IMG/VR virus record: IMGVR_UViG_2778261454_000009
Span: 1-12,110 of that record
Length of the DNA stretch: 12,110 nucleotides
Reading direction: 5' to 3' (one strand)
Origin: a virus
Lineage: Duplodnaviria; Heunggongvirae; Uroviricota; Caudoviricetes
Both the position numbers and the translations under genes were made by a program. The notes below the pieces were generated by a model. The model was given only the letters and a program-made list of their open reading frames with translations. It was not told the origin of the DNA and searched no databases. Positions 1 to 12,110 of this stretch are shown here, in pieces. How positions within the stretch are numbered: the first letter of the stretch is position 1; each line of letters opens with the position of its first letter.

Positions 1-1194
1 ATGATCACCGACACAAAGCTCAGGAAGGCGCTCGGCAAGAAAAGAGATGATATCGAGATTATTTCTGATTCGCACGGGCTCAACGCCAGAATCAGCCAGG
101 CCGGAAAAATATCATTTTTCTATCGGTATCGCTGGGCCGGTAAAGCGGTAAAACTCAATGTTGGTGATTATCCTGCAATGAGTATCACCCAGGCAAGAGA
201 GCGTCGCCAACAATTCAGAAACTGGTTAACTGAGGGACTGGATCCGCGAGAGCAGGTGAAGCTGGATAAGCAGACCCGACAGGAAGCGATGTCCGTTGCC
301 GAAGCGTTCAATTACTGGATTGAAAGGCACTGTATCGCTAACGGGCTAGTTAAAGTCGATTACTATCGCCAGGTGTTTGAGAAACATATCGCCGAACCGA
401 TGAAGAATGTCAAAGTCGATAACACAGCGAAAATGCACTGGATCAACGTCTTCGATTCTATAGAAAGCAGGGTGATGGCTCATTACATGCTTTCGCTGTG
501 CAAACGGGCGTTTAGGTTCTGCGTTAACAGAAGTGTGATCGCCTCAAACCCACTCGAGGGATTACTGCCATCTGATGTCGGGCAAAAGCCTAAAAAGAGA
601 ACTCGCAGGATGGACGATGACGATCTGCGCAAAATCTATCAGTGGTTGAAAAGCCATATGTCGATAGAGTCCGTTTTCCTGGTGAAATTTATTATGCTTA
701 CCGGATGCCGTACGGCTGAGATTCGACTTAGTGAGAGATCATGGTTTCGATTGGATGATAATGAGTGGGTCGTGCCTGCGGGCAGTTATAAAACTCGGGT
801 ACATATTAGAAGGGGACTCTCAGACGCCGCCGTTAACCTGGTCAGAAATCACCTCAAGAAAATAAACACCAATCACCTGGTGACTTCACAACGTAAAATT
901 GATGGCGGGATCAAAGATTCGCCCGTTCATTCACCTGTGGCATCCAATTACGCCCGTTCTATTTGGAATGGAACAGGTATGGCAGAGTGGTCGCTTCATG
1001 ATATGAGGCGGACGATAGCCACAAATCTCTCTGAGTTAGGTTGCCCGCCGCACGTAATTGAAAAGCTGCTCGGGCATCAGATGGTGGGGGTTATGGCGCA
1101 TTACAACCTTCATGACTATATCGATGATCAGAAACACTGGCTCCGCGTTTGGCAGAGCCATCTTGAAGAGATCATCGGAGAGCCCTTCAGTTAA
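1..1194 (+). CDS. int: Tyrosine site-specific integrase with N-terminal arm-type DNA-binding domain
   Basis: 397-aa ORF from ATG at 1. N-terminal arm-binding-like motif (FFYRYRW...[13 protein letters not shown]). C-terminal catalytic boxes [14 protein letters not shown] and LGHQ...MAHYNLHDY give the R-H-R-Y signature. The window starts at the start codon, so promoter and att site are not visible and the true start could lie upstream. Confidence 0.9.
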
Positions 1195-1388
1195 TTTATC
1201 TTCTTTTTATCCTCCCACTCTTTGATTGACTCAGAGCGCCAGCGGTTAGGGTTGCCGGGCCAGTCAGGGGGTGGGAACGGGCATACGAAGCCCCGAGGCA
1301 TTGTGTCTGCACTTTGCCATGACCAAAGGGTTTTGCGTGAAATTTTGTAGCGACTGGTCAGGTCTGACGTTACCAAAATATCATCCAT
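1191..1388 (-). CDS. AlpA-family HTH protein, putative excisionase/regulator (Rac ydaQ position)
   Basis: HTH-like core [20 protein letters not shown] and C-terminal [14 protein letters not shown] resemble the phage AlpA/Xis family (from memory). The ORF track extends to 1433 but that codon is TTG with a poor RBS. The in-frame ATG at 1388 is preceded by GGAGAG at about 4 nt. Its stop overlaps the int stop tail-to-tail. Confidence 0.6.
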
Positions 1389-1429
1389 AGCTCTCTCCAG
1401 TTGCCCGTTCGGGCCATTCAAAATCTTTT

Positions 1430-1672
1430 TCAACCAACCTGCCCGGGCAGGGAGCGGAGACGGCGCATGCCGGTCATCGCTGTGGCCACGTAGCTCGCCT
1501 TTCGGTTCACCACCTCCACCCAGACTTTCACGCCTTCAACCTTCACCGTATAAGTCTCTTTCATCTTGCTTCGCCCATAGTCGCCATATGTTTGCAAGTG
1601 AGCTTCCAGCGCGATGTCGCATGCTTGGCGAGCTAAAGGTGATTGCTTACTTCCTCGATTGATCAGTCGCAT
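1430..1672 (-). CDS. Hypothetical small protein (ydaC/ralR position of Rac-like prophages)
   Basis: 80-aa ORF with ATG at 1672 preceded by AAGGAGA, lying in the leftward operon between the recT-like and xis-like genes. No recognisable motif. Confidence 0.5.
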   Translation of the reverse strand: MRLINRGSKQSPLARQACDIALEAHLQTYGDYGRSKMKETYTVKVEGVKVWVEVVNRKASYVATAMTGMRRLRSLPGQVG

Positions 1673-1710
1673 ATAATCTCCTTGAGGGAGGGTTACCCCT
1701 CCCGGTCTCG

Positions 1711-2829
1711 TCAGGCCACGTATTCCGGTTTCATATCCGCCAGGGTGATGCTGAATTGATCGTGCAGTTCATCGCCTAAGTGACGCTTTGAAGATGCAAG
1801 CATGCGCTCGGCTTCAGCGAACCGTTCGGATGCATGCGGCTCGTCGGGCTGGGGCAGGGATTTAATAGCCTCCTCAACCTTGTTGCGTGCATCCACTAGG
1901 TAATAACGCTTTACGGCTTTGTTTTTCAGCTCGGTGAATAGTGCGGATCCCAGCGTAGCTTTCGCCGTTTCAATGTCGGCACGCAGCGATTTGGCGCTAT
2001 CCACGTCCTGAGCAGATTCGATGCGTTCGCGGAAATCATCGGCAAGAGAGTCGACATTTACCGACGATTCCTGTGCGCTTTGCGTGGTTGTGACGGTGTC
2101 ACCTGAGATATCAGCCAGGCTAACGCGTTGCGGCGTTGGGTTGATCTCTTTTTCTGTGCGCTGTTCAATCTCATCAGGGGTGTACACACCAAGAACAACT
2201 GCAGGGCAATACAGGCGCGCCCAGTATTTGAGTGCCAGATAAGCGATCTGCTGTTTCGGGTTTGATACCCAAAGTGGAGAATTACGTGTGATTACGCTGG
2301 AGAGGAAAACAGGCTCTCCCCAGGTGATATCACTTTCACCGCGAATAACGGCACCTACCCGTACCGACAGTCCTTGTTCATCAGCACTTTCCCAACCGCG
2401 TACCATTTCTTTCTTGTCGTACGTCCCGCCACCTTTCGCAGGCTTTTTAACGGTTATCTCGCGGCTGCTGGCACATTTCGACCAGTCGCCCTCGTACTCA
2501 TAGTGAAAGCGGCCAACGATGGCGTTTGAGCTGGAGATCACCGCATTAACCAGTTGCGCTTCGTATCCCAGGACACCGTTAACCAGGTGCGTCTTTTGCG
2601 CCACGGCGTAAGGGTTCATACCCCACTGCATCGCCTGCATGATGATGGCCATGCAGTCTGCCGGATTGCCGCGGAGGTGCTCAGGCACCGTTACGGCTGC
2701 CTGTGCCATCAACCCGGCGACAGACTGAAGCTGGGTTAAAGCCTGCACGTTGAAAATGGCATTGCTGGCTGAGATCGTGTTTGGAGTCTGCTGTTCAGCG
2801 GTTACGATATTCGTGTTTTCCATCATCAT
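1711..2829 (-). CDS. recT: RecT/Red-beta superfamily single-strand annealing protein
   Basis: 372-aa ORF immediately downstream of recE in the same orientation (6-bp gap). Region ...DCMAIIMQAMQWGMNPYAVAQ...LGYEAQLVNAVI resembles the conserved Bet/RecT core (compare lambda Bet ALLIVANQYGLNPWTKEIYAF). AAGGGG RBS before a triple ATG. Family assigned from motif plus recE-recT synteny. Confidence 0.7.
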   Translation of the reverse strand: MMMENTNIVTAEQQTPNTISASNAIFNVQALTQLQSVAGLMAQAAVTVPEHLRGNPADCMAIIMQAMQWGMNPYAVAQKTHLVNGVLGYEAQLVNAVISSSNAIVGRFHYEYEGDWSKCASSREITVKKPAKGGGTYDKKEMVRGWESADEQGLSVRVGAVIRGESDITWGEPVFLSSVITRNSPLWVSNPKQQIAYLALKYWARLYCPAVVLGVYTPDEIEQRTEKEINPTPQRVSLADISGDTVTTTQSAQESSVNVDSLADDFRERIESAQDVDSAKSLRADIETAKATLGSALFTELKNKAVKRYYLVDARNKVEEAIKSLPQPDEPHASERFAEAERMLASSKRHLGDELHDQFSITLADMKPEYVA

Positions 2830-2834
2830 TCCCC

Positions 2835-5800
2835 TTATGCCTGAGTACGCAGCGCTTCAAGGCGGCGCAGGTCGAAGTCGTTCAGTTCGTCGGTGTAGTC
2901 AGCAGTGATTGGCGCTGGCCATTCACCTGTGTCGAATCCGGTTGCGATATTGCGCATCGCTTTGCGGTACTCGAGCATACCCAGCTCCAGTAGTTCAGCG
3001 GATGCCTCGATGATGGCGATCCAGTGGTAGTTCTCGTCTTTGTTGACGAAAATCCAGAAGAACTGGTCCAATGCTGCGGTCTCGCAATACATGGCGGCGC
3101 TCAGGTGGTAATCACGGTCGATGATTTCCCGGTGCAGTTTGGCGCGCAAACCTTCCTGTTTAATGTTCCACATGCTGATGGTTTTCAGGTCGGCACCGAT
3201 GCGAACGCCGTCCAGGTCGATCTCCAGATCAGGACGAACGCGGACTTCCAGACCGGTTTCGTCGTCAAAGCCAAAGTAGCTCACCTCAACAGCGCGGCTC
3301 GGATGCTGAAGCAGCATCCCGGCGGTTGGGTGTGCCAGTAATGCCGACTGAATAGCCAGCGCGGTGCTCAGTTGCTGACGGGTGACCAGCACTTTCCCTT
3401 GCGGATTCTCACGCCAGGCATCCAGCAGTTCGTCGGCAACGACGGCGTCCGGATTAACAGACTTCACGGTCTGGATCAGATCCGCTTTGGTACCGGACAC
3501 TTTCAGTGGTTGGGGCTTCTGCGCCTCCTGTGCAACCAAGTCAGGATTGATGATTGCCAGTTGCTCGAGTAACGCATCACGGCTACCGCTGGTTTTCACC
3601 TGTGCTGGCAGAGTGGCGTTGTATTCCTTGATGCAGGCTTTCATCGCCGCTGCGGTCTGCTTCTGGTCCGCTTCGATACGCTGATACTCTTCAGGAAGCG
3701 ACATATAGCTCTGACCAGTTTCCTCGACTGAACCACCCAGCGGCACCTGTGCTGGCAGAGTGGCGTTGTATTCTTCGAGCAAGGCTTTGATCTCATCTGC
3801 ACTCAGCAGCGCTTGCAGACCTGCGTTGTAATCATCGATAAACGCGCGGATCGTTGCCGTCGTGGTGAATGCGCCTTCCGGAATTACCGGTTCAACGCTG
3901 AATTCGGCATCCAGCAGTTCGGGCTGCAGCGCCAGCGCATGCACCAGGTTTCCCATGTCGAGCACCGGTGAGCGTTCTTTGACGATTGTCTTGGCGACGT
4001 GGCGCGCATTAAAGTACATCAGGCTAACTCGGGCATCTTTCACCTGCGTGGAGCTGATACCGTTGGCGGCGTGGTAAACCTCGTTCGGCAAACCTTCATA
4101 ACGACCTGGCTCGAAGTAAGCGGGATACACGGCTACCGGTTCGTCAGTTTGTACTTCTGGTTCGTTTTGTGCCGCAACTGGCTCAATTTGGTTTACAGAA
4201 TCGCTATTTTGGGCGACAGAATCCGCATTCTGGTTTACATCGGCTTGCTGGCTGGTATGTGACTCTTCACCAGTTTCCAGACTGCTTTCGCTTGACTGCA
4301 CTTCATCACCAGCATGTTTTTCATCACTGACAGTTTCTTCCATCTGCACATGGCTGGTGGTGTCCTCATTAACTGGTGAACGGTCATCTGTTTGTGTTTG
4401 TTGATCGCCCATCAGGCCATCAATGGAGAATACGCCGTTGCCCATGTTGGCGATTTGTGGCTGTTTAGCATCTGTTTTCTGCTCTGCAGCGACCTGCTCA
4501 TTAACCTCATTTTCCCAGCTGACGTCCGGCGCATGACCAGCATCAGCCAGCGTTTCTTCTGAGGGGTTTGAGTGGTCATTTTCGGTTAGATTGGCATTGA
4601 TATATGCCCGCAACCGCCCAGGAAAGTTAACCAATTCGGATGATGTGCCGCGGATGAGTGCAAAGATGGCTGCGCGTGAATAGTCCAGGATGCCAGCGGT
4701 TTTGCGCAGCGCCTCAGACCATTCGCTGAACGGACTTTCTTTCTTGCTGACAATCTCTTTAGCGCGACGGTAGACCCCACCAGGTATGTCGTAGATATTG
4801 AAATCCATTGGCAAGGTGGCCAGCGCAATTTCAACATCCAAAGTGTCCAGTGTGTGGACATAGTCGGTATTACGATCGGTCTTATTTCCACCGCCAGCAT
4901 TGGTTTTGACGTCAGTACGTTGAATCTGCGCAACGCGGTTACCTTTCTGCCATTCCTTGGCCAGCAGGCCACGGTCGATGTAATCAGTGTTGAACCACAC
5001 AGTCAGGAACTGGATAACTGTTGCCAGCTCCGGTTTTTTACCGTCGACAGGGAAGACTTTCTTAACAGCATTCACGACTTTATGAATATCGTGCTCAATG
5101 GCTTTTTTGAATGCTTCCACATTCTCAGCAGCCAGCAGCAGGTTCTGGATGTACGTGTCATCAGTGTCCATCTCAAGGCGGACAATCTCGTTTTTCTGCC
5201 CAGCGTCGATGTGATAGAGATATTCACCATCACCGATGAACTGAGCCAGTACGCGCTGACGGAATGGCAGGGTGGCTACGACGATCAGGTTCGGCTGATC
5301 TGGCTGCTGAGATTGTTCTTCGGGACCGACTTCATCACCAACGCTGGTGGTTTCAGTTTTGAGCAGAGGAAACTTTCCACTGCGCCAGTCTTCAACCAGT
5401 TGATTGCGATCACCTGCTTCTGCGTTCACCCAGTCAGACATGAAAGCAGCGATCACTTCAGGTTCATGCTCTTCACCCTGTTCGAAGATGTCTTTAATCG
5501 CCTGAATCATTTTCCACTCAGCATTAAGACTGAGTTCGCCAACTTCAGGAACATCATTTTTAACCTGCAGCAAGTTCTGGAGATAGGTATTGCTTTCGTC
5601 CAGTGACATTTCGCTGGCAGCCAACTGCTGCTCTTTAGTGACGTGGGTTTGGTATTTATCGTTCATCAGATGGACGGCAAAGCGGACCGCTGGAGTACGG
5701 TTTTCAACCGGGACAATTTCGGACGCAGTCGCATCTTCAACGATTACGGTCGGAGTAGGTGTGTAGGGGGCGTCAACGGAACCAGTAGACACACCAGCGG

Positions 5801-6074
5801 CTTTTGGCAGCCAGGTGCGCCCATCGTCCTGAAGCTCGTAGCGATCACACCAGGTAAAATCAACTTCACCTTCTTTCGGCAGGCCGTCGACAACTGGGAA
5901 ATCAGTGCGAATCGGTTTGGCGTAGTCCTTACCCCGACCTGTTTCGATACCTGCATCTTCCAGCGCAACATCCAGCATCAGATTGGCGCGAGCCTCGGTT
6001 TTAGCAGTGAACCAGACCACTGCATCTTGCTTTCCGGATTTCTGAGTGGCTTTAACCACATTAAAGAATTCCAT
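2835..6074 (-). CDS. recE: Exodeoxyribonuclease VIII (RecE-like), enlarged form with acidic low-complexity linker
   Basis: 1079-aa ORF. N-terminal TDFPVVDGLPKEGEVDFTWCDRYEL and central KVFPVDGK...WFNTDYIDRGLLAKEWQKGNRVAQIQRT...NAGGGNKTDR...LDYSRA blocks match my recollection of E. coli Rac RecE ([51 protein letters not shown]...NAGGGNLTDR). GAGGAT RBS before ATG at 6074. Confidence 0.85.
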   Translation of the reverse strand: MEFFNVVKATQKSGKQDAVVWFTAKTEARANLMLDVALEDAGIETGRGKDYAKPIRTDFPVVDGLPKEGEVDFTWCDRYELQDDGRTWLPKAAGVSTGSVDAPYTPTPTVIVEDATASEIVPVENRTPAVRFAVHLMNDKYQTHVTKEQQLAASEMSLDESNTYLQNLLQVKNDVPEVGELSLNAEWKMIQAIKDIFEQGEEHEPEVIAAFMSDWVNAEAGDRNQLVEDWRSGKFPLLKTETTSVGDEVGPEEQSQQPDQPNLIVVATLPFRQRVLAQFIGDGEYLYHIDAGQKNEIVRLEMDTDDTYIQNLLLAAENVEAFKKAIEHDIHKVVNAVKKVFPVDGKKPELATVIQFLTVWFNTDYIDRGLLAKEWQKGNRVAQIQRTDVKTNAGGGNKTDRNTDYVHTLDTLDVEIALATLPMDFNIYDIPGGVYRRAKEIVSKKESPFSEWSEALRKTAGILDYSRAAIFALIRGTSSELVNFPGRLRAYINANLTENDHSNPSEETLADAGHAPDVSWENEVNEQVAAEQKTDAKQPQIANMGNGVFSIDGLMGDQQTQTDDRSPVNEDTTSHVQMEETVSDEKHAGDEVQSSESSLETGEESHTSQQADVNQNADSVAQNSDSVNQIEPVAAQNEPEVQTDEPVAVYPAYFEPGRYEGLPNEVYHAANGISSTQVKDARVSLMYFNARHVAKTIVKERSPVLDMGNLVHALALQPELLDAEFSVEPVIPEGAFTTTATIRAFIDDYNAGLQALLSADEIKALLEEYNATLPAQVPLGGSVEETGQSYMSLPEEYQRIEADQKQTAAAMKACIKEYNATLPAQVKTSGSRDALLEQLAIINPDLVAQEAQKPQPLKVSGTKADLIQTVKSVNPDAVVADELLDAWRENPQGKVLVTRQQLSTALAIQSALLAHPTAGMLLQHPSRAVEVSYFGFDDETGLEVRVRPDLEIDLDGVRIGADLKTISMWNIKQEGLRAKLHREIIDRDYHLSAAMYCETAALDQFFWIFVNKDENYHWIAIIEASAELLELGMLEYRKAMRNIATGFDTGEWPAPITADYTDELNDFDLRRLEALRTQA

Positions 6075-6213
6075 GTGAGATCCTCATTTTTGGGTGTTAG
6101 AATCCCCGGACCATTGATAGCGCCCATTGGGTTAACTTTGGTTTTAATGTTGTTTCCGGTGTAACTTTGGTCGGTACCACCGGACGTAGATCCCGCCTTG
6201 CGCGGGTTTTACG

Positions 6214-6375
6214 TTAGCCTTCGTGAGCCATCTGGTCGTGCGAAGCGCAACGTTTGGAGCAATACTCTTTTTCTTTGCGCGCCAGCTGTGAGCCGTTGCG
6301 ATAGAGAAGGGTGCTCTTGATTACTTCCTCCGTTTTAACCGGCTTGCCGCAATATCCGCATTTCTTGTCTAACAT
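6214..6375 (-). CDS. Small zinc-ribbon protein (YdaE-like), 53 aa, absent from the ORF track
   Basis: Hand translation of the minus strand gives MLDKKCGYCGKPVKTEEVIKSTLLYRNGSQLARKEKEYCSKRCASHDQMAHEG, with a CxxC ... CxxxC cysteine pattern. GGAGGA lies 4 nt upstream of the ATG. It sits between the kil-position gene and recE, where Rac has ydaE. Confidence 0.6.
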   Translation of the reverse strand: MLDKKCGYCGKPVKTEEVIKSTLLYRNGSQLARKEKEYCSKRCASHDQMAHEG

Positions 6376-6386
6376 GACATCCTCCG

Positions 6387-6593
6387 CTAGTGGCTGAGTC
6401 CATGCCCCAGACCGTTCAGATAAACTTCAACCAGCAAATCCTTGGTGTAAGTCATTTCTACGCCGCGATGCAGATACAAACGTCCGCGAGCGTTAGCTGA
6501 TGCCGTCCAGGTTGAGTCTTTGTGTTTGACGAGCATCCCCGGCTGAACTGCGCCGCGGTTTACTGTCTGTGTACCGTAGTGCTGATGAACCAT
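6387..6593 (-). CDS. Small protein, first gene of the leftward early operon (KilR position by synteny)
   Basis: The ORF track's 116-aa version starts at a TTG (6737) with no usable RBS. The in-frame ATG at 6593 (MVHQHYGTQTVNRG...) is preceded by GGAGAA at about 6 nt and gives a 68-aa product. Function is inferred from position only. Confidence 0.55.
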   Translation of the reverse strand: MVHQHYGTQTVNRGAVQPGMLVKHKDSTWTASANARGRLYLHRGVEMTYTKDLLVEVYLNGLGHGLSH

Positions 6594-6845
6594 GATGTTC
6601 TCCAGTTTTTCTGAGTGAACTTCGCTGGTGGTGCCGCGGCGCTGATCTTCACGGTTGAGCGTTTTAACTCTGCAATTCACCACCGCGAAGCTCACTCTGT
6701 GCTTTGCCCTTGTCGCCAGGCTGGCGGAACGTTTCAAACCTACTGCGCGTTAATCTCACCACCTCATTCCGGTCTTCGTATGCCCCGGACGGCTACTTCG
6801 TGGGCTCCATGCCTGGGTGGTTCGTGGTGCGTCTTGGTGATTGCA

Positions 6846-6874
6846 TATTAAGCCTGAGACTTAAATCATGTCAA
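6846..6874 (-). promoter_or_regulatory. PL-like sigma70 promoter for the leftward operon
   Basis: Minus strand reads TTGACA (6874..6869), a 17-nt spacer, then TTAATA (6851..6846). The spacer and -10 contain the operator palindrome also found at the rightward promoter. Confidence 0.5.
6848..6864. promoter_or_regulatory. Putative repressor operator, 17-bp near-palindrome (OL-like)
   Basis: TTAAGCCTGAGACTTAA is the exact reverse complement of 9062-9078 and is itself a 14/17 palindrome. An additional half-site TCAGGCTTAATT lies at 6902-6913. Confidence 0.45.
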
Positions 6875-7015
6875 GCTCCAGGCGAAATGTGATTGTAAGT
6901 TTCAGGCTTAATTGTGATGTTCACCGAATTGCAGGCAAAAAAAATCCCGACGCTAAGGTCGAGATCGGGGACTTCGTGGCTGGGTGTTGGCGGCTGAGAT
7001 GGTGGGTGAGGGTGT

Positions 7016-7045
7016 AAAAAACCCGGCGCTGTGGCCGGGTTTTTT
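7016..7045. terminator. Bidirectional rho-independent terminator
   Basis: AAAAAA-CCCGGC-gctgtg-GCCGGG-TTTTTT: a 6-7 bp GC stem with a 6-nt loop, flanked by an A-run and a T-run. It starts 2 nt after the stop of the 34-aa ORF and separates the AT-rich unit from the PL-like promoter. Confidence 0.65.
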
Positions 7046-7047
7046 CA

Positions 7048-7152
7048 TTACTGCTGGTTAAATCCTTTCGGCGAGTGCTGCTGTTCTTTATTACCAAATT
7101 TTTGATTTACAATGATTTTATAAGCGTTATTGAGAGCTTGCTTTATAGACAT
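7048..7152 (-). CDS. Small ORF (34 aa) co-transcribed downstream of the HslV-like gene
   Basis: Hand translation MSIKQALNNAYKIIVNQKFGNKEQQHSPKGFNQQ. AAGGAG lies 6 nt upstream of the ATG at 7152, 17 nt after the upstream gene's stop. It ends 2 nt before the terminator and is AT-rich like its neighbour. Short ORFs are prone to false calls. Confidence 0.35.
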   Translation of the reverse strand: MSIKQALNNAYKIIVNQKFGNKEQQHSPKGFNQQ

Positions 7153-7169
7153 TAATATCTCCTTATGTG

Positions 7170-8474
7170 TTATTGACGATTAAAGTAGTTAGAGTTTAGC
7201 TCTTTAGGGAAGTAGTGTTTACGATTTACCCAAACAAATCCATCAACTTTTGATATCACAGCGACATCAACAGGCCCACCGACAGTTTCATAATCATGTG
7301 ATACTTTTCTTTTGAATGCAGTGATGTTCACTAATGATTCGGCCATATACGCAAGATCTGCCTTCCCAAGTGATTGCAACATCGATATCATTTTATTTGT
7401 ATGGTTATTAACAATATAGCTTTCAAGTTTAGTATCGTGATCTTGTAAAAGTACGTTTTTGAGTTCCTCAATTTCACTGGAGAAGTGATTGGCTAGTACT
7501 CCATTGTTCATTGCAGGGAAAATATTGCTAGAAACATAATGATTAAGCCGATCAAAAACTTCCTCTGTAAGAGTTCTGTTAAAATTAATGATGTTAGGGT
7601 TGCACCCATCAATGAAAGTTACTACTTCATCTTCTTGAGCAAATGGTATAACAAACCCCATATTGGTTACCTCATTATGGGATTTATTATCAATATTATG
7701 GATCATCAATTTGTTTTTAAAAATGCCGTAGATATGAAGAGTGCAAATGGAAGGGTAATATTCTTCCTCTCCATAACCTGTTATAACAATCCCTGAATAT
7801 GTACGACTAGCATGGACTTTGAAAATTAAATAAGTGGAATATAATATGACTTTTTCCATAAGCTCTTGCTGTATATTTTCACAGTTATCAAGAACAATAA
7901 TTGATGAAATGTATGGCGATATTAAATCTTGTATATATGCTAAAGCATCATTAAACTCTTCTGTATCAAACCCTTCGAAAAAGAGATTATTCCTTAAGAT
8001 TCCTATCTCTAAATCAAAGGCTTGCTTAACTATGTTTTGAAAAATAACATTGTCGAGTTCAACGGCGGGGTTCATTGTTAAATAGTTTACTACATTATTA
8101 TCATTAATGTATCTCATCAAACCTTTGAGGTTATCAACAACAAGGTTTATAACGCAAGCCTCTCTCATTTCATTTGTTATAAGGTCTGAGTTACCATTGA
8201 TGAATTTTACAAAGTCATTAACATATTCTTTAATGGTAGGGAAACTAGTTTTCCCCAATTGTTTTCTATAGGATTTAATTATAAGTTCCCACGGTGCGCC
8301 ACCCAGTGTCGCATTATTATAAATCATGATCCCCACGGGATGGTGTTTAGATAGTTCGAATAGTTTTTCCGCACTATTATTTATTTTTACTAATCTATTA
8401 TGCTCTGTGGTGACTGCAGAGTCAGCAGCAAGGGCGATTCCAGTATTATTTATTACAACAATCTCAGCTGTCAT
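7170..8474 (-). CDS. HslV/20S-proteasome-beta-like N-terminal-nucleophile hydrolase homolog with a large insertion
   Basis: 434-aa product from ATG at 8474 (the track's longer form from 8573 has no RBS). The ORF is about 33% GC. N-terminus MTAEIVVINNTGIALAADSAVT...NNSAEKLFEL parallels HslV [24 protein letters not shown]...KKVRRL and 20S beta [21 protein letters not shown]...KNCSKIHFI, with Thr directly after Met, Asp at 17 and Lys near 33-36. Mid-protein IVITGYGEEEYYPSICTLHIYG and C-terminal DYETVGGPVDVAVISKVDGFVWV resemble the corresponding T1-family strands. The GSG loop is not recognisable. Comparison is from memory, not a search. Confidence 0.6.
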   Translation of the reverse strand: MTAEIVVINNTGIALAADSAVTTEHNRLVKINNSAEKLFELSKHHPVGIMIYNNATLGGAPWELIIKSYRKQLGKTSFPTIKEYVNDFVKFINGNSDLITNEMREACVINLVVDNLKGLMRYINDNNVVNYLTMNPAVELDNVIFQNIVKQAFDLEIGILRNNLFFEGFDTEEFNDALAYIQDLISPYISSIIVLDNCENIQQELMEKVILYSTYLIFKVHASRTYSGIVITGYGEEEYYPSICTLHIYGIFKNKLMIHNIDNKSHNEVTNMGFVIPFAQEDEVVTFIDGCNPNIINFNRTLTEEVFDRLNHYVSSNIFPAMNNGVLANHFSSEIEELKNVLLQDHDTKLESYIVNNHTNKMISMLQSLGKADLAYMAESLVNITAFKRKVSHDYETVGGPVDVAVISKVDGFVWVNRKHYFPKELNSNYFNRQ

Positions 8475-8502
8475 TGCAAAACATCCCGTGTAGTAGTGAT
8501 AA

Positions 8503-8531
8503 ATATTAATTAAATTGATAGTTTTTTTCAA
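8503..8531 (-). promoter_or_regulatory. Candidate sigma70 promoter for the HslV-like unit
   Basis: Minus strand reads TTGAAA (8531..8526), a 17-nt spacer, then TAATAT (8508..8503), about 30 nt upstream of the ATG at 8474. Confidence 0.45.
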
Positions 8532-8615
8532 TCTAACATAAATGGCGGAATCACCCCCCAGTAAAGACATCATTGTCTCATGGGAACTAAAAATTCAGGA
8601 CAAACCTAAAGCGAT

Positions 8616-9002
8616 TCAGTCCCCCTGCGAGCGAATCCGCCCCTTCATGTACTTCTCATACAGCTCATCCAGTTCCTTAAGACGTATCGAAAAGATGCGG
8701 AGCATGTTCTGTTGCTCTTCTTCTGGAAGCTGGCGGTAGAGCTCAAGCAGGCGCTGTTCGTCCGGCTTAAGTCCGTCCTTCTCGCCGACATCCTCACCGA
8801 GTAACCAAGGCACAGACACGCCAGCTGCGTCAGCGACAGCGAGAGCTGATTTCTTGCTGATCACGCCTTTTTTAAACCAGCCGTTCACAGACTGCGGGGT
8901 TACCCCAGCAACCCTGGCCATATCGGATTTGGTCATACCGCGCCCGTTCAGCTCTGAAAGGCGTTCGACAAGTATCGGATTAAGTACGGTTTTCTCTTTC
9001 AT
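8616..9002 (-). CDS. CI-like immunity repressor, XRE-family HTH transcriptional regulator
   Basis: 128-aa ORF with a canonical HTH (MTKSDMARVAGVTPQSVNGWFKKG) and a helical C-terminal region. It is divergent from the Cro-like gene, with shared operators in the intergenic region. No obvious S24 peptidase domain, as in RacR/DicA-type repressors. Confidence 0.8.
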   Translation of the reverse strand: MKEKTVLNPILVERLSELNGRGMTKSDMARVAGVTPQSVNGWFKKGVISKKSALAVADAAGVSVPWLLGEDVGEKDGLKPDEQRLLELYRQLPEEEQQNMLRIFSIRLKELDELYEKYMKGRIRSQGD

Positions 9003-9050
9003 GGTTAGAAGAATAAGCCTTTTGCTTAAACTTGAAAATTCGCCTCAGGC

Positions 9051-9080
9051 TTGACAATAAATTAAGTCTCAGGCTTAATT
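9051..9080 (+). promoter_or_regulatory. PR-like sigma70 promoter for the rightward operon
   Basis: TTGACA (9051-9056), a 17-19 nt spacer, then a TTAATT/TAATTT -10-like element (9075-9081), followed by GGAG and the ATG at 9107. This is a mirror-image copy of the PL-like cassette. Confidence 0.5.
9062..9078. promoter_or_regulatory. Putative repressor operator, 17-bp near-palindrome (OR-like)
   Basis: TTAAGTCTCAGGCTTAA lies between the -35 and -10 of the PR-like promoter and is the exact reverse complement of 6848-6864. A related half-site CTCAGGCTTG at 9044-9053 overlaps the -35. Confidence 0.45.
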
Positions 9081-9106
9081 TGATTGTATTCAAATCGGAG
9101 ACAACG

Positions 9107-9325
9107 ATGAACGGGTTAACGAAAGCCATTAAGTCCGCTGGCACTGCAACAAATCTCGCAACCATGCTGGGCATCAAGCCGATGTCGGTCAGCCGCTGGA
9201 AAAACCGGTACCAGGGCATGGTGCCTGCTGATCGGGTCCTTCAAATCTACGCGGCTACCGGCGTAACTCCACACGAGCTGCGCCCTGATCTCTATCCAAA
9301 CCCAAGTGACGGTTTACCAAAGTAA
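9107..9325 (+). CDS. Cro/YdaS-like small HTH regulator
   Basis: 72-aa product from ATG at 9107 with GGAG 6 nt upstream (the track's longer ORF from 9032 lacks an RBS). HTH ATMLGIKPMSVSRWKNR and the HELRPD motif are typical of the YdaS family. It is divergent from the repressor. Confidence 0.7.
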   Translation: MNGLTKAIKSAGTATNLATMLGIKPMSVSRWKNRYQGMVPADRVLQIYAATGVTPHELRPDLYPNPSDGLPK

Positions 9326-9336
9326 GGAATGTAACT

Positions 9337-9876
9337 ATGCAATCACTTACGTATCAACAGAGTAACGGGTTCATTTCAGCAGCGCTGATAAATCGCGCTC
9401 AACCAAAACCGGGCGTCAGTTGTGGTGCCCTCCGTGATGCTGTTCGCGCCTGGTCAGCAGTAGCCGGGCAGGACGTTGTAACGGCCCTGATCGTTGAAGA
9501 GTGGCACCGGATAGGTGGCGAAGGTATCGACTTTCCGGCAGATCACAGCCGTGCCCGGCAGAAGCTGTTCCGCTTCCTGGATAACCATTTCAACAGCGAA
9601 CGGTACCGCGAGAACGTCCGCCAGCTGACGCCGGCAATCCTCGCTGTCCTGCCGATTGAATACCGCAATCGTCTGCTACCAGAAGACAACGTAATGGCTC
9701 GTCTGGCAAGGCTGGAGAAGGAAACCAGCGAAGCGAAGATTGCTGTCGCAATGGATGCGCCACGTCATCAGAAGCTGAAAGAGTTGAGCGAGGGGATCGT
9801 GGAGATGTATCGCGTTGACCCTGGGTTAACCGGTCCGTTGATGGAAATGGTGCAGATTATGCTGGGGGCTATATGA
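9337..9876 (+). CDS. YdaT-like protein (cII-like regulator / putative toxin YdaT family)
   Basis: 179-aa ORF 11 nt after the Cro-like gene, with AAGGAA RBS. The motif LTPAILAVLPIEYRNRL resembles the conserved PAILAILP segment I recall from Rac YdaT. Gene order matches ydaS-ydaT. Confidence 0.6.
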   Translation: MQSLTYQQSNGFISAALINRAQPKPGVSCGALRDAVRAWSAVAGQDVVTALIVEEWHRIGGEGIDFPADHSRARQKLFRFLDNHFNSERYRENVRQLTPAILAVLPIEYRNRLLPEDNVMARLARLEKETSEAKIAVAMDAPRHQKLKELSEGIVEMYRVDPGLTGPLMEMVQIMLGAI

Positions 9877-9960
9877 CCGGTTCAAAAATGGCGAAAGCCG
9901 CGGTGCTCGAACACCAACGGCTTTCAGGTGCAAAAACAGTGCGTAATTGCGGAGAACAGT

Positions 9961-10869
9961 ATGTCAAACACCGCTGAAATAATCAATTTCCCAAATAAAA
10001 CCGAACAACCGGGAGGTCGTATGGCCGACCTGTCGAACGGGTATACCAAGGTCGCTAACGAGATCCAACAGCTTAAGCCTCGCCTGAGACTGTCAGGCCG
10101 GGAATGGCAATGTTTTGAGGCGGTGATCTGGCTTACCTACGGCTGGAACAAGAAACAGGACCGCGTGACAAATACGGTTATTGCCGAGCTTACGGGCCTG
10201 AGCGATACGCATGTATCGGACGCGCTTAAGTCTCTCGCAGAACGCAAAATCATCTTTTCACAGAAGCAGGGCATGATGAAAATCGTCGGTGTAAACACTG
10301 ACCTTTCAGCATGGATTTTAGACAAACCGGAAACGGGAAGAAAATTCCCGAAAACGGGAAAATCCTTCCCGAAATCAGGAATAACCTTCCCGAAAACGGT
10401 AGACACCCAATACAAGAACAAGAACAGTATTAAAAGATCTTCGTCCGAGAATTCTGACGAATCCTCTGACGCACGTCTGAAGAAATTTTTATCAACTCAT
10501 CCTGAAGCTGCGGTCTACACACCATCCGGTGCGAAGTGGGGCTCTGCTGAAGACCTCGAGACAGCTAAGTGGATTTCCTCCAGGGTGAAGCTGATTAACC
10601 CAACCTGCAAAGCCCCGGACATGACCTCCTGGTCTAACACTGTTCGCCTGATGCGCCAGATAGACAACCGGTCGCACCAGGACATCTGCGCGCTGTATGA
10701 CTGGGCTAGCAAACACCACTTCTGGCAGACCAACATCCTGAGTCCCGAAAGCCTGCGTAAGCAGTGGGACAAGCTGACAATGCAGCGTAACGCCGGAGGT
10801 GAGCAGCGCGCTGTCAAGCCAGATCTGGACTTCAACAACACTGACTGGGCCTATGGGGTGATCCGATGA
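9961..10869 (+). CDS. Replication initiator, lambda O-like
   Basis: Start at ATG 9961 (GGAG 6 nt upstream; the track's start at 9928 is an upstream extension). MSNTAEIINF... resembles lambda O MTNTAKILNF, and ...LTYGWNKKQDRVT... matches O ...KTYGWNKPMDRIT. Iteron repeats are embedded in the linker-coding region. The stop overlaps the next start (ATGA). Confidence 0.8.
   Translation: MSNTAEIINFPNKTEQPGGRMADLSNGYTKVANEIQQLKPRLRLSGREWQCFEAVIWLTYGWNKKQDRVTNTVIAELTGLSDTHVSDALKSLAERKIIFSQKQGMMKIVGVNTDLSAWILDKPETGRKFPKTGKSFPKSGITFPKTVDTQYKNKNSIKRSSSENSDESSDARLKKFLSTHPEAAVYTPSGAKWGSAEDLETAKWISSRVKLINPTCKAPDMTSWSNTVRLMRQIDNRSHQDICALYDWASKHHFWQTNILSPESLRKQWDKLTMQRNAGGEQRAVKPDLDFNNTDWAYGVIR
10325..10403. 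repeat. Origin iterons: four ~21-bp direct repeats, each an internal inverted repeat, inside the O-like gene
   Basis: CCGGAAACGGGAA / TTCCCGAAAACGGGAA / TTCCCGAAATCAGGAA / TTCCCGAAAACGGTAG spaced at 21-22 bp, followed by a more AT-rich stretch (10405-10450). They encode the FPKTG peptide repeats. Architecture resembles lambda ori (TCCCTCAAAACGAGGGA x4). Confidence 0.6.
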
Positions 10870-11444
10870 AATCTCTTGCAGAGCAGATGCGTAACCACGA
10901 CCGCGAGCAGATGAGCCGCATGGCCCATAACCTGCCAGAGCAGTACCAGGAGTGCGCGCCGGTCGAGCAGGTGGCGCAGGTATTCAACAAGCTGTTCAAC
11001 GAGCTGCGCGCCGCGTTCCCGGCCAGCATGGCGAACTTCCGCACCCAGGAAGACCTGAACGAATTCCGCCGTCAGTGGCTGCTGGCGTTTCAGGAGAACG
11101 GGATCCACACCATGGCTCAGGTCGATGCCGGCATGCGCATTGCCCGCCGCCAGGAGCGCCCATTCCTGCCGTCGCCGGGCCAGTTCGTCGCCTGGTGCAA
11201 GCAGAGCGGCGGCGCGCTGGGCGTCAACGTTGACCAGGTGATCGCCGAATACTGGGACTGGCGTAACCGCTCGTTCGAATTCATCTCCAGCGAGCAATTT
11301 CCATGGTCGCAGCCGGTCATGTACCACATTTGCGTAGAATTGCGCCACCGCAGCACCGAGCGCCAGTTAACGCATGGTGAACTGGCACGCGAGGCAGGCG
11401 ATCTGCTGGACATGTGGGAAAGGCGCGTCACCGAGGGTATCTGA
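10866..11444 (+). CDS. Replication protein, lambda P-like helicase loader (short form)
   Basis: MKSLAEQMRNHDREQMSRMAHNLPEQY... closely parallels lambda P MKNIAAQMVNFDREQMRRIANNMPEQY..., and ...RRQERPFLPSPGQFVAWC... is shared. At 192 aa it is about 40 aa shorter at the C-terminus than lambda P (233 aa, from memory). Confidence 0.8.
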   Translation: MKSLAEQMRNHDREQMSRMAHNLPEQYQECAPVEQVAQVFNKLFNELRAAFPASMANFRTQEDLNEFRRQWLLAFQENGIHTMAQVDAGMRIARRQERPFLPSPGQFVAWCKQSGGALGVNVDQVIAEYWDWRNRSFEFISSEQFPWSQPVMYHICVELRHRSTERQLTHGELAREAGDLLDMWERRVTEGI

Positions 11445-11476
11445 TTATCTCCTGTGCCCACATTCCGTTTTGCCGC

Positions 11477-11502
11477 TTCTCCCAAACCAACCTTTTTTAT
11501 AA
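11477..11502. promoter_or_regulatory. Candidate hix/gix-like crossover site for the adjacent serine invertase
   Basis: TTCTCCCAAACC-AA-CCTTTTTTATAA has a 12-2-12 layout with an AA core and about 20/26 identity to hixL (TTCTTGAAAACCAAGGTTTTTGATAA) as I recall it. It lies 60 bp upstream of the invertase ATG. No partner site is visible in the window. Confidence 0.4.
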
Positions 11503-11561
11503 CCATCAAAAATCTGGTGATGCTTCGCCGTTTCTCCTGTTTTCATAACAGGAGAAATCCC

Positions 11562-12110
11562 ATGATTTACGGTTATGCCCGAGTATCAACAAACCACCAG
11601 GACACTGAATTGCAACTAACGGCGCTCAAGTCAGCGGGTTGTGAGAAAATTTTTGAAGAGCATGCCAGCGGGAGGAAATCGAATCGGCCGGTTCTAAAAC
11701 GGCTGATCGCCACTATGCAGCTGGGGGATGAACTGGTGGTCTGGAAGCTGGACAGGATAGGCCGCAACGTTCTGCATGCGCTGTTGATGTTCCAGCAGTT
11801 ACAGGAAAAGGGTATCAACTTCCGCAGTATTACCGATGGCGTGGATCTCAAAACAGCCAGCGGCCGCTATAACTTTCGTAACATCCTTTCCGCAACACAA
11901 TATGAATCTGATCTTAATAGCGAACGTACCTTAGCAGGGCTGGCCGTAGCCAGGGCAAAAGGGCGAGTTGGTGGTCGCAGGCCTAAGTTCACGGATGAGC
12001 AATGGCGGGAAATGGGGGAGCGGATGGCAACCGGTGAATCACGACAAAGCGTATCAAAAACGTATGGAGTAGGGCTCTCAACTCTGTATAAAAAGTTTCC
12101 AGCTAGCTGA
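11562..12110 (+). CDS. Serine DNA invertase, Hin/Gin/Pin/Cin family
   Basis: Start at ATG 11562 (GGAG 7 nt upstream; the track's start at 11454 is an upstream extension). MIYGYARVSTNHQDTELQ... has the catalytic-Ser N-terminus; LVVWKLDRIGRN and INFRSITDG match the resolvase core; the C-terminal HTH ends ...LSTLYKKFPAS (compare Hin ...LSTLYKKHPA). The window ends at its stop codon. Confidence 0.85.
   Translation: MIYGYARVSTNHQDTELQLTALKSAGCEKIFEEHASGRKSNRPVLKRLIATMQLGDELVVWKLDRIGRNVLHALLMFQQLQEKGINFRSITDGVDLKTASGRYNFRNILSATQYESDLNSERTLAGLAVARAKGRVGGRRPKFTDEQWREMGERMATGESRQSVSKTYGVGLSTLYKKFPAS

What the first reader, a model, noticed from the sequence alone, without database searches (positions are those of the whole stretch)
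11400..11561. Abrupt junction: short P-like gene followed directly by the invertase module
The P-like protein ends about 40 residues short of lambda P (length recalled from memory). Only about 115 bp separate it from the invertase start, and that interval holds the hix-like site and a perfect hairpin. In Rac-type prophages the invertase normally sits far from the replication genes, next to tail-fibre genes. This may be a deletion or recombination scar of a degraded prophage, possibly invertase-mediated.
Basis: inference. Interest (0 to 1): 0.4.

Follow-up and report, generated by a model that had tools for sequence, protein, structure and literature searches.

The report
Deletion scar in a phi80-type prophage remnant
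The abrupt junction is the scar of a roughly 30 kb deletion that removed all late genes from a phi80-family prophage of E. coli. It fused a truncated replication gene to the DNA just upstream of the phage's invertase, which is ordinary prophage decay and not the invertase's own work.

Summary
The P-like gene (10866-11444) encodes 192 aa. Residues 1-191 are 100% identical to the 229-aa P (gene 14) of phi80-type phages and prophages. A 117-bp spacer follows, holding a hix-like site (11477-11502) and a 12-bp hairpin (11530-11558). An intact Gin/Pin-type invertase starts at 11562.

Every relative matching the left side stops at 11439. Every relative matching the right side starts at 11436. The two share only GGTA.

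In intact prophages at the same kch-yciI (att-phi80) site, P and the invertase lie 30-32 kb apart, in the same order and orientation. The Q, lysis, head, tail and tail-fibre genes sit between them. In the source contig the invertase is followed directly by yciI-tonB, so the remnant is about 12 kb.

The breakpoint is about 50 bp from the hix crossover dinucleotide, and the P-side sequence is not hix-like. I therefore read this as a microhomology-mediated illegitimate deletion, not an invertase event.

P' loses the equivalent of lambda P's DnaB-binding C-terminal "lasso". The hix site is left without a partner. The truncated allele was found in one isolate only. This is ordinary prophage decay and of low interest.

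The parts
9961..10869 (+). O-like replication initiator (phi80 gene 15 type). Intact, 302 aa from the start annotated in relatives; the longest ORF begins at 9928.
   Evidence: Pfam PF04492 Phage_rep_O. 99.5-100% DNA identity to phi80, mEp237 and E. coli prophages. A 302-aa gene is called in the source contig.
10327..10399 (.). 3.5 copies of a 21-bp repeat inside the O gene, read as the origin iterons.
   Evidence: Tandem Repeats Finder, period 21, 3.5 copies. That these are ori iterons is inferred by analogy with lambda and phi80.
10866..11444 (+). Truncated P-like helicase loader P' (192 aa): 191 native residues, one junction-encoded Ile, and a TGA supplied by the right-hand DNA.
   Evidence: 191/191 identity to the 229-aa P. 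PF06992. PHROG 109 positions 1-191 of 236. The end aligns to lambda P residue ~192.
11436..11439 (.). Deletion joint: 4-bp microhomology GGTA present in both parental sequences.
   Evidence: Left-side homology ends at 11439 in every hit. Right-side homology begins at 11436. Three-way alignments. Chance of >=4 bp overlap is 0.016.
11440..11506 (-). Remnant (about 23 codons, MVIKKVGLGEAAKRNVGTGDNQI) of the 5' end of the invertase-proximal alternative tail-fibre segment. It now runs into antisense P sequence.
   Evidence: Translation. In LR-33 the same sequence starts the 'gp53-like domain' tail-fibre ORF. Annotated as a tail-fibre or tail-collar pseudogene in UPEC85 and phi80. Shared with tail-fibre regions of ~96-kb plasmids.
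11477..11502 (.). Invertase-proximal hix-type recombination site (core AA at 11489-11490), now without a partner.
   Evidence: Identical to one arm of the inverted pair flanking the invertible segment in LR-33 and TUM12355. It is the only high-scoring site in the window and in the 20.6-kb source locus.
11530..11558 (+). Hairpin (12-bp stem, 5-nt loop) whose 3' arm contains the invertase Shine-Dalgarno AGGAGA (11550-11555). A native leader element, annotated 'IR3' in phi80.
   Evidence: Fold of 11505-11580: MFE -24.9 kcal/mol, z = -4.4. Identical in LR-33, UPEC85 and TUM12355. Retained in phi80 and mEp237 with one U-A to C-G double change. IR3 annotation.
11562..12110 (+). Intact serine DNA invertase (Gin/Pin/Hin type, phi80 pinL homologue), 182 aa.
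   Evidence: PF00239 and PF02796. Collinear 1-181 alignment to Mu Gin (3UJ3, 4M6F), E about 1e-55, Ser9 conserved. 93-99% DNA identity to the invertases of phi80, mEp237 and HK225.

Best explanation
The window is the whole of a ~12-kb remnant of a phi80-family lambdoid prophage integrated at att-phi80, between kch and yciI, in an E. coli isolate (assembly GCA_002518125.1). An internal deletion of about 30-32 kb removed everything between codon 191 of the P-like helicase-loader gene and a point 126 bp upstream of the invertase gene. The lost genes are the nin-region genes, Q, lysis, terminase, head, tail, tail fibres and almost all of the invertible tail-fibre segment. The two ends were joined at a 4-bp microhomology (GGTA), the signature of illegitimate recombination (replication slippage or microhomology-mediated end joining) rather than site-specific recombination. 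The inferred consequences are as follows. (1) P' lacks the equivalent of lambda P domain IV, the C-terminal lasso that grips the DnaB DH-LH interface, so the replication module is probably dead. (2) The element cannot lyse the cell or make particles. (3) The invertase and its native leader (hix site, SD-sequestering hairpin) are intact, but the hix site has no partner, so the invertase has nothing to invert in cis. (4) The invertase now lies directly downstream of, and co-oriented with, the early rightward operon.
For: The breakpoints are shown directly. Left homology ends at 11439 and right homology starts at 11436 in all relatives, with base-level alignments. Intact prophages at the same site have a 229-aa P and, in the same order and orientation, the invertase 29.8 kb away in LR-33 and ~32 kb away in AREA_C483. 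ECCWS199 also has a 229-aa P followed by nin, Q and lysis genes. Viable phages phi80, mEp237 and HK225 carry both the same O/P genes (gene 14 = 229 aa) and the same invertase next to attP. The source contig runs int...P'-invertase-yciI-tonB-...-trp with no late genes. The 192-aa allele is recorded for one contig only, while all 14 other listed members of its 2,112-member 90% cluster are 229 aa. The junction 20-mer is absent from GTDB species representatives and from JGI metagenomes. The chance of 4 bp or more of microhomology is 0.016. The truncation point aligns to lambda P residue ~192, the boundary of domain IV (193-233), which forms the DnaB-binding C-terminal lasso (PMC12661323). A second, independent internal deletion of the same prophage type (ydaT joined to baseplate J) exists in TUM12355, so such decay recurs at this locus.
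Against: The actual parent genome is not available. The deleted length and content are therefore inferred from relatives that carry at least three different late-gene modules. A single-step deletion cannot be distinguished from several successive events, or from recombination between two co-resident prophages. Four bp is short, and a 1.6% chance overlap is not negligible. The right-hand parental sequence has one fairly good hix-like half-site at the joint. Loss of P function, loss of invertase substrate and read-through into the invertase are inferred, not tested. The two assemblies that share the junction (NCBI and Logan) may derive from the same reads.
Confidence: 0.88

Rival explanations
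1. Invertase-mediated deletion: the Pin-type recombinase joined a quasi-hix site in the P gene to a quasi-hix site just inside the invertible segment, excising the DNA between them.
For: An active-looking invertase sits 123 bp away. The right-hand parent has a hix-like half-site GGTATCTGATTA abutting the joint (half-site score 7.0 against 7.5 for the real site's weaker half). Two registers of the right parent rank at the 98.7th-99.5th percentile. From general knowledge, recombination with quasi-sites is documented for Cin and Gin.
Against: The genuine hix site (11477-11502) is untouched, and its crossover dinucleotide is about 50 bp from the joint. The P-side parental sequence scores at or below the 87.5th percentile in all 16 registers tested, so it offers no binding site. 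In the only register with any score, the two parents have different core dinucleotides (AG and CC or CA), and core mismatch blocks serine-invertase ligation (general knowledge). Registers whose core falls inside the shared GGTA score at background. With 16 registers and two parents tested, one 99th-percentile hit is expected by chance. Wild-type Hin/Gin-family enzymes need a Fis-enhancer invertasome and strongly disfavour deletion (general knowledge).
Confidence: 0.04
2. Assembly artefact: the contig is a chimera that wrongly joins the early region to the invertase end of an intact prophage.
For: The junction occurs in only one isolate and nowhere else searched. The source is a draft assembly.
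Against: The joint shares only 4 bp, far below any assembler's overlap or k-mer length. It lies inside a 189-kb contig with correct chromosomal synteny on the side examined. The same protein and contig are recorded from two sources, NCBI and the independent Logan assembly. An independently deleted sibling exists in a complete genome.
Confidence: 0.04
3. Native arrangement: a phage lineage that naturally has a short P and the invertase right after the replication genes.
For: None beyond the ORFs being open.
Against: No record in 50,697 phage records, 72,556 plasmids or 5,426 complete E. coli genomes covers the junction. P' is identical to the 229-aa form up to the exact breakpoint. The minus-strand tail-fibre fragment is cut mid-codon. 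The element has no structural genes.
Confidence: 0.01

Closest known systems
Enterobacteria phages phi80 (Lula), mEp237 and HK225, and their prophages at att-phi80 (kch-yciI)
   Same: The O/P (gene 15/14) DNA is 99.5-99.9% identical. The invertase (pinL) with its upstream hix remnant and IR3 hairpin is 93-99% identical. The attachment locus is the same. mEp237 has the same int-DUF4060-recT-recE order.
   Different: Those phages have a 229-aa P and a full set of late genes between P and the invertase in prophage order. Here about 30 kb is missing and P is truncated.
Cryptic, decayed lambdoid prophages of E. coli such as Rac, DLP12, e14 and Qin
   Same: It is a defective remnant that keeps integrase, RecET, KilR, the immunity region and, as in Rac (pinR) and e14 (pinE), a Pin-type invertase, after losing morphogenesis genes by internal deletion (general knowledge; gene content).
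   Different: The attachment site and replication module differ. This deletion is a strain-specific singleton, not a fixed, species-wide remnant.
Mu Gin/gix, P1 Cin/cix, Salmonella Hin/hix and e14 Pin/pix inversion systems
   Same: The invertase aligns end to end with Gin and has Ser9. The 26-bp site has 12-bp half-sites around a 2-bp core and lies in the tail-fibre coding region next to the invertase. Intact relatives have two inverted copies flanking about 1.4-1.8 kb that carries alternative tail-fibre and assembly genes.
   Different: Only one site survives here, so there is no invertible segment. The Fis enhancer was not examined.
Lambda P helicase loader (PDB 6BBM, 8V9T)
   Same: Homologous over residues 1-199 (E = 1e-54), encoded next to an O-like initiator gene that carries iterons.
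   Different: It lacks the region equivalent to domain IV, the C-terminal lasso (lambda residues 193-233), which contacts the DnaB DH-LH elements.

Membership tests
Lambda P-like helicase loader (PF06992 / PHROG 109) | Significant match to the family profile | tested here: met
   PF06992 at E=6e-48, 163 bits against a cut-off of 26. PHROG 109 at E=5e-74.
Lambda P-like helicase loader (PF06992 / PHROG 109) | Full length, including the C-terminal DnaB-binding lasso (lambda P domain IV, residues 193-233) | tested here: not met
   The protein ends at residue 191 plus one foreign residue. That aligns to lambda P ~192 and to profile position 191 of 236. Intact orthologues are 229 aa. It is a truncated member, probably a pseudogene product.
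Lambda P-like helicase loader (PF06992 / PHROG 109) | Encoded immediately downstream of an O-like initiator gene that contains ori iterons | tested here: met
   PF04492 O-like gene at 9961-10869, overlapping the P' start. 21-bp x 3.5 repeats at 10327-10399.
Hin/Gin/Cin/Pin serine DNA-invertase system | Small serine recombinase: N-terminal resolvase catalytic domain with the nucleophilic Ser near position 9-10, plus a C-terminal HTH | tested here: met
   PF00239 and PF02796. Alignment 1-181 to Mu Gin with Ser9 in YARVST.
Hin/Gin/Cin/Pin serine DNA-invertase system | Two 26-bp crossover sites in inverted orientation flanking an invertible segment | tested here: not met
   Only one high-scoring site in the window and in the 20.6-kb source locus. 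The same scan recovers both sites in LR-33 and TUM12355.
Hin/Gin/Cin/Pin serine DNA-invertase system | Fis-bound recombinational enhancer, usually inside the 5' part of the invertase gene | not tested
   No Fis-site analysis was done, and binding cannot be shown with these tools.
Invertase-mediated (hix or quasi-hix) rearrangement | The novel joint falls in the central dinucleotide of a hix-type site, and both parents have recombinase-binding half-sites | tested here: not met
   The joint at 11436-11439 is about 50 bp from the hix core at 11489-11490. The P-side parent scores at or below the 87.5th percentile in all registers. The cores differ in the only scoring register.
Microhomology-mediated illegitimate deletion | Collinear parental sequences joined at a few bp present in both parents, with no longer homology and no inserted bases | tested here: met
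   GGTA is shared, flanking bases differ on both sides, and there is no filler DNA. Order and orientation are the same as in intact prophages.
phi80-family prophage at att-phi80 | Integrated between kch and yciI, with int at one end and pin at the other | tested here: met
   The source contig has the invertase followed by yciI-tonB. Relatives have kch next to int. The mEp237 and phi80 attP annotations are. kch itself lies outside the window and outside locus L005.

The most novel reading that the evidence does not exclude
The deletion may have done more than kill the prophage. It places an intact invertase, leader included, directly downstream of and co-oriented with the early rightward operon (cro-like, ydaT, O, P'), with no convincing terminator between them. 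Invertase expression could therefore have become dependent on prophage derepression or SOS, and act in trans on invertible tail-fibre segments of other prophages. Separately, the lasso-less P' could act as a dominant-negative partner of O or DnaB and interfere with superinfecting phi80-type phages. Neither idea is excluded and neither is supported by any test here.
Probability: 0.05. Interest if true: 0.35.

Novelty: already known. Interest (0 to 1): 0.1.

Why it matters
It matters little beyond correct annotation. The 'replication protein P' here is a truncated pseudogene product. The 'recombinase family protein' is an orphan phage invertase. The island is a defective remnant unable to replicate, lyse or form particles. 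It is a clean, base-resolved example of prophage decay by a microhomology deletion. With TUM12355, it also shows that the att-phi80 prophage loses its late genes repeatedly and independently while keeping both ends.

Tried and rejected
(1) Invertase-mediated joint. I scored every register around the joint in both parents against hix-type half-sites. The P side is at background and the real hix site is untouched, so I rejected this.

(2) The same junction elsewhere. I ran exact 38-mer and 20-mer scans of the GTDB representatives and a 20-mer scan of JGI metagenomes. I also ran megablast against complete E. coli genomes, phages and plasmids. Nothing was found. The exact-protein look-up found only the source isolate.

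(3) The hairpin or hix site as a product of the event. Both are identical in intact relatives and annotated in phi80, so I rejected this.

(4) The hairpin as an intrinsic terminator. No T-run follows it. The scan reports only a weak 6-bp stem at 11515-11530.

(5) The Rotman et al. 2012 phi80 genome paper could not be read because it is not held. The phi80 details therefore come from the GenBank annotation.

(6) An att core repeat search between attL and attR of TUM12355 found no shared repeat of 10 nt or more. I did not pursue it.

(7) The low-GC 467-aa ORF gave no hit in PADLOC or Pfam.

Full report
**What is in the sequence.** The window carries, left to right:
- a tyrosine integrase (1-1194);
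- a small minus-strand ORF in the xis position (1191-1433) and a DUF4060 gene (1430-1672);
- recT (1711-2829, minus strand) and a 1079-aa recE (2835-6074, minus strand);
- ydaE- and kilR-type genes;
- a low-GC 467-aa ORF (7170-8573, minus strand);
- a cI-like repressor (8616-9002, minus strand), a cro/YdaS-like gene and a YdaT/CII-like gene (9337-9876);
- an O-like initiator (to 10869), a P-like gene (10866-11444) and a serine invertase (11562-12110).

The finding's elements are all real:
- P' is 192 aa.
- The spacer to the invertase is 117 bp.
- The spacer holds a 26-bp hix-type site at 11477-11502, by far the best such site in the window.
- It also holds a 12-bp-stem hairpin at 11530-11558 (z = -4.4).

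**Where the homology breaks.** I ran megablast of 9900-12110 against 5,426 complete E. coli genomes. Hundreds of prophages matched the O and P genes at up to 100% identity. Every listed match stopped at window 11439, and no record covered the junction. The same held for the whole window, for phage records and for plasmids. Matches to the right-hand part all began at 11436, and strain UPEC85 was 100% identical from there to 12110.

The base-level comparison and 41 reads:
- left parent: ...GTCACCGAGGGTAagccagtg...
- right parent: ...catatccGGTATCTGATTATC...
- window: ...GTCACCGAGGGTATCTGATTATC...

The joint is therefore a 4-bp microhomology, GGTA (11436-11439), with no inserted bases. Under random joining, an overlap of 4 bp or more has probability 0.016.

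**What the parent looked like.** The O/P module is that of phage phi80 (genes 15 and 14; gene 14 = 229 aa), mEp237 and HK225, at 99.5-99.9% identity. Those same phages also carry this invertase, called pinL in phi80, next to attP. The mEp237 record places the attachment site in the kch-yciI region (written "yciL" in the record).

Complete prophages at that site include LR-33, AREA_C483 and ECCWS199. Where the whole element was retrieved (LR-33 and AREA_C483), the order is:
- kch, int, recT, recE, immunity genes, O, P (229 aa);
- nin-type genes, Q, lysis, terminase, head and tail genes;
- tail fibres with an invertible segment;
- invertase, then yciI.

P and the invertase have the same orientation. 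They lie 29,827 bp apart in LR-33 by breakpoint coordinates, and about 32 kb apart in AREA_C483. The ECCWS199 locus covers kch through the lysis region and shows the same 229-aa P.

The exact-protein look-up identified the window's source as contig NODD01000008.1 of GCA_002518125.1. That contig is identical to window 866-12110, and there the invertase is followed directly by yciI, tonB, yciA and on towards trp. The element is therefore a ~12-kb remnant with no lysis or structural genes.

**Was the invertase responsible?** In LR-33 and TUM12355, the window's hix-type site is one arm of the inverted pair that flanks the tail-fibre invertible segment. The deletion endpoint lies 37-40 bp beyond that site, inside the former invertible segment. 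It cuts the conserved tail-fibre motif ...VGTGDNQIP(D)... on the minus strand.

A serine invertase exchanges strands at the central 2 bp of its site, here 11489-11490, about 50 bp from the joint. I scored all 16 registers around the joint in both parents:
- The P-gene side never exceeds the 87.5th percentile of background.
- The right parent has one decent half-site and reaches the 98.7th-99.5th percentile in two registers. That many tests would produce such a hit by chance.
- In the one register where the recombinant itself scores above background (core 11434-11435), the core dinucleotides of the two parents differ.

I therefore rate invertase mediation at about 4% and favour illegitimate, microhomology-mediated deletion. 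A single step cannot be proven without the parent genome.

**Consequences (inferred).** P' is identical to the 229-aa protein for 191 residues, then has Ile and a stop supplied by the right-hand DNA. Residue 191 aligns to lambda P residue ~192. In the lambda P-DnaB cryo-EM work, residues 193-233 form domain IV. [quoted passage not shown] P' lacks that whole segment, so helicase loading is probably lost.

The invertase is intact. It aligns to Mu Gin over residues 1-181 and keeps Ser9. However, only one hix-type site remains in the 20.6 kb examined. The same scan finds both sites in loci that still have invertible segments. The invertase is therefore an orphan in cis. UPEC85 also shows only one such site in 28.7 kb, as do phi80 and mEp237 within the ~8.7 kb retrieved around their invertase genes. 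In UPEC85 and phi80 the adjoining DNA is annotated as a tail-fibre pseudogene fragment. An orphan pin next to attR is thus common in this family.

**The hairpin.** It is not a by-product of the junction. It is identical in LR-33, UPEC85 and TUM12355 and is annotated as IR3 in phi80. In phi80 and mEp237 one stem pair has changed from U-A to C-G on both sides. Its 3' arm contains the AGGAGA Shine-Dalgarno sequence 6 nt before the ATG. The most likely role is to dampen invertase translation. This rests on one compensatory change and on geometry only. No T-run follows it, so it is not a typical terminator.

**How unusual is it?** The 192-aa allele is recorded for a single contig among about 15 billion proteins, and the other listed members of its cluster are all 229 aa. 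The junction is absent from the GTDB representatives and from the JGI metagenomes. It looks like a recent, strain-specific event.

TUM12355 carries an independent deletion of the same prophage type, joining ydaT to baseplate J. The one search match pattern suggests the same for TD225-C4. Decay at this locus therefore recurs. All of this is textbook prophage degradation.

**Verdict.** The deletion-scar interpretation is supported, and the invertase-mediated mechanism is not. Novelty: already known. Interest: low.

Noticed in passing
window 7170-8573 (minus strand): A 467-aa ORF just downstream of, and on the same strand as, the cI-like repressor gene has strikingly low GC (0.31-0.36 against about 0.52 around it). 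It has no Pfam or PADLOC hit and matches only PHROG 5990 (unknown function, E=1e-177). It is present in LR-33, TUM12355 and AREA_C483 but replaced by other genes in ECCWS199. It sits in a typical moron or exclusion-gene position.
   Followed up: partly
window 2835-6074 (minus strand); L001, L002, L004, L008: RecE length varies widely among otherwise near-identical prophages: 1079 aa here, 887 aa in ECCWS199, 969 aa in LR-33 and TUM12355, 1076 aa in AREA_C483. The protein contains repeated 'EYNATLPAQV' segments, which suggests internal repeat expansion or contraction.
   Followed up: no
L004 (TUM12355) 11506-12913; also H57 TD225-C4: An independent internal deletion of the same att-phi80 prophage type fuses ydaT to a truncated baseplate J gene. 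It removes O, P and most late genes but keeps the complete invertible tail-fibre segment and the invertase.
   Followed up: partly
L006 (phi80) 3855-4123; L007 (mEp237); L003 (UPEC85) 13625-14127: phi80 and mEp237 (within the ~8.7 kb retrieved around the invertase) and the UPEC85 prophage (28.7 kb) carry the invertase with a single hix-type site. In phi80 and UPEC85 the DNA upstream is annotated as only a tail-fibre pseudogene fragment. The invertase appears to have no invertible segment even in apparently functional members of the family.
   Followed up: partly
L002, L003, L008 compared with window 1-11439: At least three unrelated late-gene modules sit behind near-identical early regions at the same attachment site, each ending in tail fibre, hix and pin. 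They are a DUF3383-sheath myovirus type in LR-33, a Mu/P2-like myovirus type in AREA_C483, and a lambda/N15-like siphovirus type in UPEC85, phi80 and mEp237. This is strong mosaicism.
   Followed up: no
window 11436-11498: This 60-bp stretch (tail-fibre motif plus the left part of the hix site) matches ~96-kb E. coli and Shigella plasmids at 90-98% identity. They are probably P1-like phage-plasmids. This fits the known sharing of tail-fibre crossover regions among unrelated phages.
   Followed up: no
window 11530-11558: The hairpin that sequesters the invertase Shine-Dalgarno is conserved from phi80 to this prophage, with one compensatory U-A to C-G change. It may be a translational brake on the invertase, and I do not recall it being described for pin-type genes.
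   Followed up: partly
window 11422-11447 and the right parent, L003 13986-14012: The tail-fibre side of the joint contains a fairly good hix-like half-site (GGTATCTGATTA, 9 of 12 matches to the TTATCAAAAACC half-site in reverse complement). I judged it coincidental, but it is the one feature that keeps the invertase hypothesis from being zero.
   Followed up: yes
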